Source: the human T2T-CHM13v2.0 reference genome, Homo sapiens. Taken from it: a DNA stretch of 64,000 nt. The notes under the pieces were generated by a model. That model had not been told where the DNA came from. It did not search any database and worked only from the letters and a program-made list of their open reading frames with translations. The position numbers were made by a program, and so were the translations under genes. Each line of letters begins with the position of its first letter. The first letter of the stretch is position 1. Shown here in pieces: positions 13,095 to 14,508 of the stretch. Location of the stretch: assembly GCF_009914755.1 (NCBI RefSeq), contig NC_060940.1; one strand, given 5' to 3'.

Positions 13095-13496
13095 ACTGTA
13101 GCAATGGGTAGAATGGTGTGATGTTTTTACCAAGAAATTCGTTACTTAGTTTTTCCCCCTCCTTTCTTTTTTAGAGTTGCAAATGCACTTAAAAAAGGAA
13201 ATATATCTCTTTCACAAATGGGTATGATTCTCGATTGCTATAAAGTAAGAAGGTAACTAAAAAAAAGCACAAAACAGTGTTACTAAATTCCTGCCCAATA
13301 AGCTTAAGGGTTGCTCTTCGCTGGTTAAAAACAGGGGTTACTAAAGGTCAAGGAGGTGTTCGTGGCATACCGACACTGCTAGAAACCCTCTCCTTGACTT
13401 GTTCAGAAGGATTGCAAGAGGTTGCCAAAGGGAACATCTTCTTTTTTGTTTGTTTTTTTGTTTTTTGAGACGGAGTTTCGCTCTTGTCGCCCAGGC
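13095..13496. repeat. Inverted duplication, derived arm (402 bp)
   Basis: Reverse complement of 14102-14508 with ~5 substitutions and 2 small indels; interrupts a MIR-like remnant; no TSD. Confidence 0.97.
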
Positions 13497-14101
13497 GTGA
13501 CCTTGGGCAGATTAATACCCTCTGTGCTTTAGGTGACTCCTCTAGCCTCATCTTCTCTGCTGCACAGGAGAAAAGGCAGCACCTGAGGAGGTGAGAGCTG
13601 GCCAGGTCTTCATTGAAAAGGAAGATAGAGAAAAAGCCTTGATTCTCCTGCAGGCTCCAGCCTAGGGCTGGGTATTGGTCAGTACCTTAAACATGGCAGA
13701 TCAGACTCCTGTCGTCCTCCCAGGCAGGGGAGGGACTGTGTGCTTCCCTGAGCCAGCAGATACGGGGCATCCACATCTCCAGAGGACTTAAGGATTCACA
13801 GGCCCATGATCCAGACACTCAACCTCATTAGAAGATGTCTCCTTTGCCAGCCGGGCATGGTGGCTCATGCCTGTAATCCCAGTACTTTGAGAGGCTGAGG
13901 CGGGCGGATCACCTGAGGTCAGGAGTTTGAGACCAGCCTGGCCAACATGATGAAACCCCATCTCTACCAAAAATACAAAAATTAGCTGGGTGTGGTGGTG
14001 GGCGCCTGTAATCCCAGCTACTTGGGAGGCTGAGGCAGGAGAATCGCTTGAACTCGGGAGGCAGAGGTTATAGTGAGCTGAGATCACGCCAATGCACTCC
14101 A

Positions 14102-14508
14102 GCCTGGGCGACAAGAGTGAAACTCCATCTCAAAAAACAAAAAAACAAACAAAAAAGAAGATGTTCCCTTTGCCAACCTCTTGCAATCCTTCTGAACAAG
14201 TCAAGGAGAGGGTTTCTAGTAGTGTCGGTATGCCACGAACACCTCCTTGACCTTTAGTAACCCCTGTTTTTAACCAGCGAAGAGCAACCCTTAAGCTTAT
14301 TGGGCAGGAATTTAGTAACACTGTTTTGTGCTTTTTTTTAGTTACCTTCTTACTTTATAGCAATTGAGAATCATACCCATTTGTGAAAGAGATATATTTC
14401 CTTTTTTAAGTGCATTTGCAACTCTAAAAAAGAAAGAAGGAGGGGGAAAAAATCTAAGTAACGAATTTCTTGGTAAAAACATCACACCATTCTACCCATT
14501 GCTACAGT
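14102..14508. repeat. Inverted duplication, source arm (407 bp)
   Basis: Begins inside the full-length AluS at 13848-14155, so this arm is the original. Confidence 0.97.
14371..14423 (-). pseudogene. NCOA5-like putative terminal exon (ELQMHLKKEIYLFHKWV*)
   Basis: Long pyrimidine tract plus tag acceptor, phase 1, in-frame TGA. No homology evidence; placed by position and phase only. Confidence 0.4.

What the first reader, a model, noticed from the sequence alone, without database searches (positions are those of the whole stretch)
13095..14508. Young 400-bp inverted duplication captures the pseudogene's putative last exon, giving a potential long RNA hairpin
13095-13496 is a ~98% identical reverse complement of 14102-14508, with a ~605-bp spacer. 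The derived arm includes only the last ~50 nt of the neighbouring Alu, splits a MIR-like remnant (cagacact|gtgaccttggg) and has no TSD or poly-A of its own. That fits template switching (FoSTeS/MMBIR or Pol theta) rather than retrotransposition. The source arm contains the putative terminal acceptor and exon (14423). By eye I found no minus-strand AATAAA/ATTAAA before ~12075, so a pseudogene transcript could include both arms and form ~400 bp of mostly non-Alu dsRNA (ADAR, Dicer endo-siRNA or piRNA substrate). The arms could also mediate inversion of the spacer.
Basis: partly seen in the sequence, partly recalled or inferred. Interest (0 to 1): 0.75.

Follow-up and report, generated by a model that had tools for sequence, protein, structure and literature searches.

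The report
Young inverted copy in pseudogene intron
A 400-letter stretch of human DNA sits next to a 97.5% identical, flipped copy of itself, likely left by a DNA copying slip a few million years ago; both copies lie in the last intron of a dead gene rather than in its last exon, so this is likely an ordinary, harmless duplication that would form a long RNA hairpin only if the dead gene is still read.

Summary
The inverted repeat is real: 13095-13496 matches 14102-14508 with 5 substitutions and 2 small indels around a 605-bp spacer, and the sequence occurs only twice in the genome. The right arm is the source, because it carries the Alu's 3' target-site duplication. The copy (13100-13496) splits a MIR cleanly, with 5 bp of microhomology at one junction, a blunt other junction, no TSD and no poly-A. 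That fits a template-switch local inverted duplication, roughly as old as the human-chimp split (range about 1-15 My). The exon claim fails. Intact NCOA5-like proteins of other mammals end in an exon that maps to 11574-11516, followed by ATTAAA and AATAAA at 11272 and 11262. The 14423 'exon' has no such homology. Both arms therefore lie in the ancestral last intron (14770-11575), whose splice sites are intact, so a hairpin would be confined to pre-mRNA unless splicing fails. RefSeq lists no transcript here, and I could not test expression. Long near-perfect inverted duplicates are a known class (197 within human RefSeq transcripts, few expressed). No spacer inversion turned up in the tables I could search. 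Verdict: a new, probably neutral member of a known kind.

The parts
13100..13496 (+). Derived arm: 397-nt inverted copy of 14102-14503, inserted into a MIR
13095..13099 (+). 5-bp microhomology: MIR bases that also match the template end (reverse complement of 14504-14508)
   Evidence: 23 of 30 unconstrained MIR copies have the same last 4 bases before the core; cut at 13099 scores 20.0 bits against at most 10.8 for 17 other cuts
14102..14508 (+). Source arm: last 35 nt of the Alu body, A-tail, 3' TSD (about 14157-14176) and about 330 nt of unique intronic DNA
13497..14101 (.). 605-nt spacer in ancestral orientation: right half of the MIR, unique DNA, 5' TSD (about 13831-13849) and most of the Alu
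13073..13099 (+). Left half of the interrupted MIR-like remnant (family name recalled)
13497..13509 (+). Right half of the MIR-like remnant, resuming at the next profile position
13850..14158 (+). Full-length old Alu with A-tail; 14 of 21 CpG-like sites decayed, 11 of 244 non-CpG differences from the majority of 65 Alus
14771..14933 (-). NCOA5LP penultimate coding exon with CAG acceptor and GTGAGT donor
11575..14770 (-). Ancestral last intron of NCOA5LP; contains both arms and the spacer
11516..11574 (-). True last coding exon of NCOA5LP (acceptor CAG, in-frame TAA), outside the RefSeq span
11257..11272 (-). ATTAAA (11272) and AATAAA (11262): likely ancestral poly(A) signals
14346..14423 (-). 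Cryptic acceptor (18 of 18 pyrimidines, TAG) followed by GT donor-like sites 47, 70 and 78 nt downstream; no homology to orthologue C-termini

Best explanation
This is a 397-base flipped copy of nearby DNA, likely made by one polymerase template switch in the germ line a few million years ago, sitting in the last intron of the dead NCOA5-like gene and likely without function. Shown in the sequence: the copy interrupts a MIR with no loss of target bases under the MIR profile; 5 bases at one junction match the template end; the other junction is blunt; there is no TSD or poly-A; the source arm keeps the Alu's 3' TSD; and each arm has since mutated on its own. Inferred mechanism: a nascent or resected strand left its template at 13099/13100 and annealed through the 5-bp microhomology about 1 kb away on the opposite strand. 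In the mirror reading, the lower strand folded back across 605 nt onto its own copy and returned through the microhomology. It copied about 400 nt in reverse and rejoined at the point of departure (four-point order 1-4-3-2, mirror 3-2-1-4). Predicted consequence: if a transcript from the shared CNEP1R1 CpG island ever runs the 70 kb to this intron, the arms would pair as a 400-bp nuclear duplex open to ADAR editing and be spliced out with the intron.
For: Arms, differences and uniqueness. Source polarity from the TSD pair, and two CpG decays in the right arm against one TSD-polarised change in the left. MIR empty-site test: cut at 13099 gives 20.0 bits, next best 10.8, and none of 300 random-flank controls scored above 16.2. 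One-sided microhomology of 5 or more arises at 0.14% of random junctions. Orthologue mapping puts the last exon at 11574. Divergence is 5 of 397 (1.26%, 95% CI 0.4-2.9%); the Alu-calibrated age is 0.11-0.13 of the Alu's age (95% 0.04-0.28). In PMC12350158 (passages), inverted duplications were the commonest non-mobile-element inversion class (277 events, median 284 bp), mostly with 1-15 bp microhomology. In PMC7006430 (abstract, introduction, results), 197 such long near-perfect pairs lie in RefSeq transcripts and 20 were expressed above FPKM 0.01.
Against: The empty allele was reconstructed from a MIR profile, not seen in any ape or human haplotype. The second junction has no clear microhomology. 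The copy is three times longer than the longest event (128 nt) in the short-range template-switch set of PMC7954356. Neutrality is assumed, not measured. All three CpG decays are in the source arm and the copy keeps 8 of 8 CpGs; this 3:0 split is too small to be significant but is unexplained. An active promoter probably exists upstream: a marsupial orthologue model begins antisense to the first exon of CNEP1R1.
Confidence: 0.8

Rival explanations
1. Same origin, but the locus is transcribed from the CNEP1R1 divergent promoter, and the 14423 acceptor or intron retention puts both arms in a mature RNA. This would give a duplex of about 320-400 bp for ADAR1/MDA5 or Dicer.
For: Duplex energy about -721 kcal/mol on the minus strand, against -462 and -482 for neighbouring inverted Alu pairs; three A-C mismatches. 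The fold pairs the arms almost throughout. Strong pyrimidine tract at 14423. Orthologue model overlaps the CNEP1R1 CpG island. Last-intron sites and poly(A) signals intact.
Against: No RefSeq transcript is listed. The 14423 reading has no homology and is followed by three GT donor-like sites, so it would act as a short cassette; it would also be buried in the stem. Two upstream splice sites are broken (acceptor near 19620 reads CTG, donor near 17840 reads CT). The site is not among the 3 chr16 rows of Table S8 in PMC7006430.
Confidence: 0.07
2. An older duplication whose arms are kept alike by arm-to-arm gene conversion, with or without inversion toggling of the spacer.
For: The three Alu CpGs in the copied segment are all intact in the copy, while 14 of 21 have decayed across the Alu, which hints at copying early in the Alu's life. 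Four of 5 differences are G/C in the left arm and A/T in the right.
Against: Differences reach the inner 17 nt and identity stops sharply at both ends. The joint likelihood favours a young age. The longest perfect run is only 144 bp. The spacer is in ancestral orientation. No inversion was found in the tables searched.
Confidence: 0.07
3. RNA-templated insertion: a 5'-truncated Alu with 3' transduction, or an endonuclease-independent cDNA patch from the pseudogene's own pre-mRNA.
For: The insert begins inside an Alu's 3' end and runs into its 3' flank. Class 2 templated insertions also lack TSD and poly-A (PMC5110952, passages).
Against: No poly-A, TSD or TTTT/A site at the junctions. Four runs of 4 or more T lie between the Alu and 14508 and would stop Pol III from 14267. 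Landing 0.6-1 kb from the source is unlikely for a diffusible template. A locally tethered RNA patch is not excluded.
Confidence: 0.05
4. Assembly artefact.
For: Raw reads could not be examined.
Against: The arms differ at 7 places, and changes are polarised to both arms by independent evidence. One junction falls exactly on a MIR-consistent microhomology.
Confidence: 0.01

Closest known systems
Small local inverted duplications in human long-read SV sets (Schloissnig et al. 2025, PMC12350158; passages read)
   Same: Size (397 against median 284 bp), inverted copy beside its source, microhomology within 1-15 bp, no long homology at the breakpoints.
   Different: Those are polymorphic calls. 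Arm divergence here implies an older, probably fixed event; fixation was not tested.
Four-point template switch, type 1-4-3-2 / 3-2-1-4 (Walker et al. 2021, PMC7954356; passages read)
   Same: Order of switch points and the outcome, a single inverted repeat.
   Different: Copied length about 400 nt against median 12 and maximum 128; jump of about 1 kb.
Long near-perfect inverted duplicated sequences in human pre-mRNA (Barak et al. 2020, PMC7006430; abstract, introduction, results and chr16 rows of Table S8 read)
   Same: Over 300 bp, over 96% identity, intronic; the three chr16 entries (313-585 bp, 97.4-98.6%, spacers 0.9-1.9 kb) have the same anatomy.
   Different: This one lies in a pseudogene without a RefSeq transcript and is not among those rows; expression and editing are unknown.
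Class 2 templated sequence insertions (Onozawa and Aplan 2016, PMC5110952; abstract and passages read)
   Same: No TSD, no poly-A, microhomology at a junction.
   Different: Donors there are distant; here the donor is 0.6-1 kb away and inverted.
Pseudogene-derived hairpin endo-siRNA loci of mouse oocytes (recalled, not read)
   Same: Inverted repeat inside a pseudogene.
   Different: Those hairpins carry exon sequence that can target the parent mRNA; these arms are intronic and match nothing else in the genome.

Membership tests
Local inverted duplication by template switch | Insert is the reverse complement of a nearby template | tested here: met
Local inverted duplication by template switch | Junction microhomology of 1-15 bp or blunt ends | tested here: met
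   5 bp at 13095-13099, blunt at 13496/13497
Local inverted duplication by template switch | No TSD, no poly-A | tested here: met
Local inverted duplication by template switch | Empty allele seen in an outgroup or another haplotype | not testable with these tools
   No primate genomes offered; inferred from the MIR profile only
Short-range template switch set of Walker et al. | Copied tract within the reported range (maximum 128 nt) | tested here: not met
   397 nt
Long near-perfect inverted duplicate (Barak et al.) | Over 300 bp and over 96% identity | tested here: met
Long near-perfect inverted duplicate (Barak et al.) | Inside a RefSeq transcript | tested here: not met
   Supplied annotation lists no transcript; not among 3 of 3 chr16 rows
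Long near-perfect inverted duplicate (Barak et al.) | Both arms expressed and edited | not testable with these tools
   No RNA data
L1-mediated insertion (class 1 TSIP or Alu 3' transduction) | TSD of 5 bp or more, poly-A tail, TTTT/A target | tested here: not met
Class 2 TSIP | Donor in a distant region | tested here: not met
   Donor 605-1008 bp away
Inverted-repeat-mediated polymorphic inversion | Inverted allele observed | tested here: inconclusive
   No row found; Strand-seq tables are weak below 1 kb, one file was cut, and the GRCh38 and hg17 positions are my estimates
Pseudogene hairpin endo-siRNA locus | Arms carry exon sequence shared with a live gene | tested here: not met
   Arms are intronic and unique

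The most novel reading that the evidence does not exclude
The CNEP1R1 bidirectional promoter still drives the dead NCOA5-like gene in some tissue. The young inverted copy turns its last intron into a 400-bp, mostly non-Alu, near-perfect duplex that reaches mature RNA through intron retention or the 14423 acceptor. That would make it a hominid-specific self-dsRNA that ADAR1 must edit, or a source of germ-line small RNAs.
Probability: 0.06. Interest if true: 0.6.

Novelty: new member of a known kind. Interest (0 to 1): 0.22.

Why it matters
As it stands, little: it is a clean, datable example of a 400-bp template-switch inverted duplication whose empty site can be read from a MIR and whose direction can be read from an Alu TSD. 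The useful by-product is a corrected map of NCOA5LP, which runs from at least 48726 to about 11260, well beyond the RefSeq span. It would matter more if the locus were expressed. PMC7006430 argues that long near-perfect duplexes are almost absent from mRNA and that key ADAR1 targets likely lie in non-canonical transcripts, so an expressed pseudogene intron of this kind would be a concrete candidate.

Tried and rejected
Rfam scan of 11000-17000: 30 matches, none at gathering score, all but one Alu-related; no RNA family on the unique arm. Pfam anticodon-domain search of the genome did not reach this locus or NCOA5. A 60-aa pseudogene exon found no relatives by word search, and a 45-aa one none in the PDB; orthologues were reached through human NCOA5. 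The first pairwise tail test used the wrong frame for the 11574 exon and was redone. The first MIR profile fixed the four upstream bases in its search pattern and was circular; it was repeated with a downstream-only pattern. The Schloissnig spreadsheet, as far as held and by its index, has no inversion table, so its blank is uninformative. A 3-bp match with a 4-bp offset at the blunt junction was rejected as chance. Paper searches: 'NCOA5LP' 0 papers; NCOA5 + CNEP1R1 + ZNF423 0; four NCOA5-like names 2 unrelated listings; six recalled clone or transcript names 5 listings, none opened. Two papers with human inversion or ape SV tables were not held. bioRxiv supplements and cut files could hold this site.

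Full report
OBSERVATION. The repeat is as described. Self-BLAST and alignment give arms 13095-13496 and 14102-14508, 97.5% identical in reverse complement, 605 nt apart, with five substitutions and two gaps of 2 and 3 nt in a pyrimidine tract. Perfect runs are 55, 12, 71, 144, 46, 45, 8 and 16 bp. A genome search with the non-Alu part found 2 matches, the two arms. Rfam shows no RNA family on the unique part.

DIRECTION. The Alu at 13850-14158 has a target-site duplication with one copy at about 13831-13849 in the spacer and one at about 14157-14176 in the right arm. The left arm holds only 35 nt of Alu body, the tail and the 3' TSD copy. The right arm is therefore the source. The TSD shows that the 13425 change arose in the left arm. 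Comparison with 65 other Alus shows that the changes at 14118 and 14127 are CpG decays in the right arm, and 14365 looks like a third. Both arms have mutated independently, which argues against an assembly artefact.

TARGET SITE. I built a profile from 30 MIR-like loci found with a pattern covering only the downstream half (the family name is recalled). Joining the left flank to 13497 at 18 cut points gave 20.0 bits for a cut at 13099 and at most 10.8 for the rest. None of 300 random flanks scored above 16.2. The four bases before the core agreed with 13096-13099 in 23 of 30 copies. So 13095-13099 is likely target DNA that also matches the template end: a 5-bp microhomology, found at 0.14% of random one-sided junctions. 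The insert is 13100-13496 (397 nt). The other junction is blunt. There is no TSD, poly-A or TTTT/A site, and T-runs from 14267 would stop a Pol III read-through. The two MIR halves are collinear, so the spacer is in ancestral orientation.

MECHANISM. In ancestral coordinates the switch points fall in the order 1-4-3-2, with a 1008-bp jump and a 605-bp gap. PMC7954356 (passages) says this type and 3-2-1-4 are the majority patterns and give single inverted repeats, but its copied tracts reach only 128 nt. PMC12350158 (passages) reports 277 human inverted duplications of median 284 bp, mostly with 1-15 bp microhomology, and suggests a replicative origin. PMC11724301 (abstract only) describes fold-back inverted insertions at yeast breaks, mostly 5-34 bp, with synthesis at one end and end-joining at the other. 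The anatomy is shown; the polymerase and the choice between a stalled fork and a resected break are inferred.

AGE. Five substitutions in 397 nt is 1.26% (95% CI 0.4-2.9%), about one human-chimp divergence (1.23%, recalled). A likelihood using 2 non-CpG changes, 3 CpG decays and the Alu as clock gives 0.11-0.13 of the Alu's age (95% 0.04-0.28). With a recalled AluS age near 35 My, that is about 4 My. I take 1-15 My as the range. Against this, all three Alu CpGs in the copied segment were intact at copying although 14 of 21 have decayed in the Alu, and all three later decays are in the source arm. This is a weak hint of an older event or of conversion.

THE EXON CLAIM. I located human NCOA5, used it to find NCOA5-like proteins and then collected 120 of 165 hits, from shark to carnivores. 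In 92 of those 120 a motif marked the end of the penultimate exon, and the tail after it was most often 17-20 residues. That tail maps to the minus strand at 11574-11516. A profile of 17 tails ranked this segment first among 3,371 six-frame segments of the window (E 0.013, modest for so short a tail). In 12 of 12 placental tails it gave 5-10 of 18 identities and scores of 7 to 38, against -11 to -24 for the 14423 reading. A seal isoform also matches the following bases, 11514-11443 (E 4e-6). The exon has a CAG acceptor in the right phase, an in-frame TAA, and ATTAAA and AATAAA about 250 nt on. Both arms thus lie in the 3.2-kb last intron, 14770-11575. The 14423 site is a strong-looking cryptic acceptor followed by three GT donor-like sites.

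RNA. The minus strand folds into one long stem. The arm duplex is about -721 kcal/mol, against -462 and -482 for nearby inverted Alu pairs, with three A-C, one G-G and one G-U position. This only shows what would form. For transcription: a marsupial orthologue model begins on the antisense strand of CNEP1R1's first exon, in a CpG island about 70 kb upstream, so a live divergent promoter is plausible, and the last intron's sites are intact. Against: no RefSeq transcript, several frameshifts and stops, and two broken upstream splice sites. PMC7006430 (abstract, introduction, results) counts 197 human pairs over 300 bp and 96% in RefSeq transcripts, 20 expressed above FPKM 0.01 and 7 strongly edited. 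Its three chr16 rows are other loci of the same build.

INVERSION. No row at this place was found in the T2T inversion supplement of PMC10150506, the held part of the PMC12350169 spreadsheet or the human-chimp list of PMC1270012. These are weak negatives: the events are small, one file was cut, and my GRCh38 (about chr16:49,953,400-49,954,800) and hg17 positions come from recalled gene offsets. PMC3961182 (passages) studied inversions of 5.1-226 kb and does not calibrate a 605-bp spacer. The longest perfect run, 144 bp, is short for efficient ectopic recombination (own knowledge).

VERDICT. Real, young and well explained; a new member of a known kind. The captured-exon idea is wrong, and the hairpin depends on transcription I could not test. 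Interest 0.22. The expressed-duplex reading has probability about 0.06 and would deserve 0.6.

Noticed in passing
window 48726-11257, minus strand: NCOA5LP extends far beyond the RefSeq span 14763-28516: ATG exon at 48726-48688 (12 of 13 residues match alpaca), an exon at 31998-31921 and the last exon at 11574. Intact orthologue models occur in shark, fishes, amphibians, reptiles, marsupials, mole, alpaca, pig and carnivores; I saw no primate or rodent name among the 120 rows listed of 165. 'NCOA5LP' gave 0 papers.
   Followed up: partly
window 31998-31921, minus strand: This pseudogene exon still encodes 26 of 26 residues identical to mole, mink, alpaca, seal, sea lion, bear, panda and Canis proteins (10 of 36 entries tested), while later exons match alpaca at 48-68% and marsupials share only 12 residues here. 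It is likely conserved for a non-coding reason, such as an enhancer for ZNF423; RefSeq enhancers begin about 0.7 kb away.
   Followed up: partly
L084:2062-1739 (G000:C16:55823062 downwards): The first 15 residues of marsupial orthologue model P0291 match the antisense strand of CNEP1R1's first exon exactly, suggesting a head-to-head pair on one CpG island. The match may reflect CNEP1R1's own conservation and a predicted model.
   Followed up: partly
window 5238-5871: A young CpG-rich Alu (AluYa5-like, label recalled) sits head-to-head about 30 bp from an older Alu, 86% identical over 305 nt. A 314-bp Alu deletion allele is listed at chr16:55743238 in the PMC12350158 supplement, so this closely spaced inverted pair is polymorphic.
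   Followed up: partly
window 12660-12930: A long (GAAA)n/(GGAA)n purine tract lies about 170 bp from the insertion point; such tracts can stall forks (own knowledge). Any link to the event is untested.
   Followed up: no
window about 50706 (chr16:55788706): A polymorphic 328-bp Alu insertion is listed in the PMC12350158 supplement, upstream of the NCOA5LP ATG exon.
   Followed up: no
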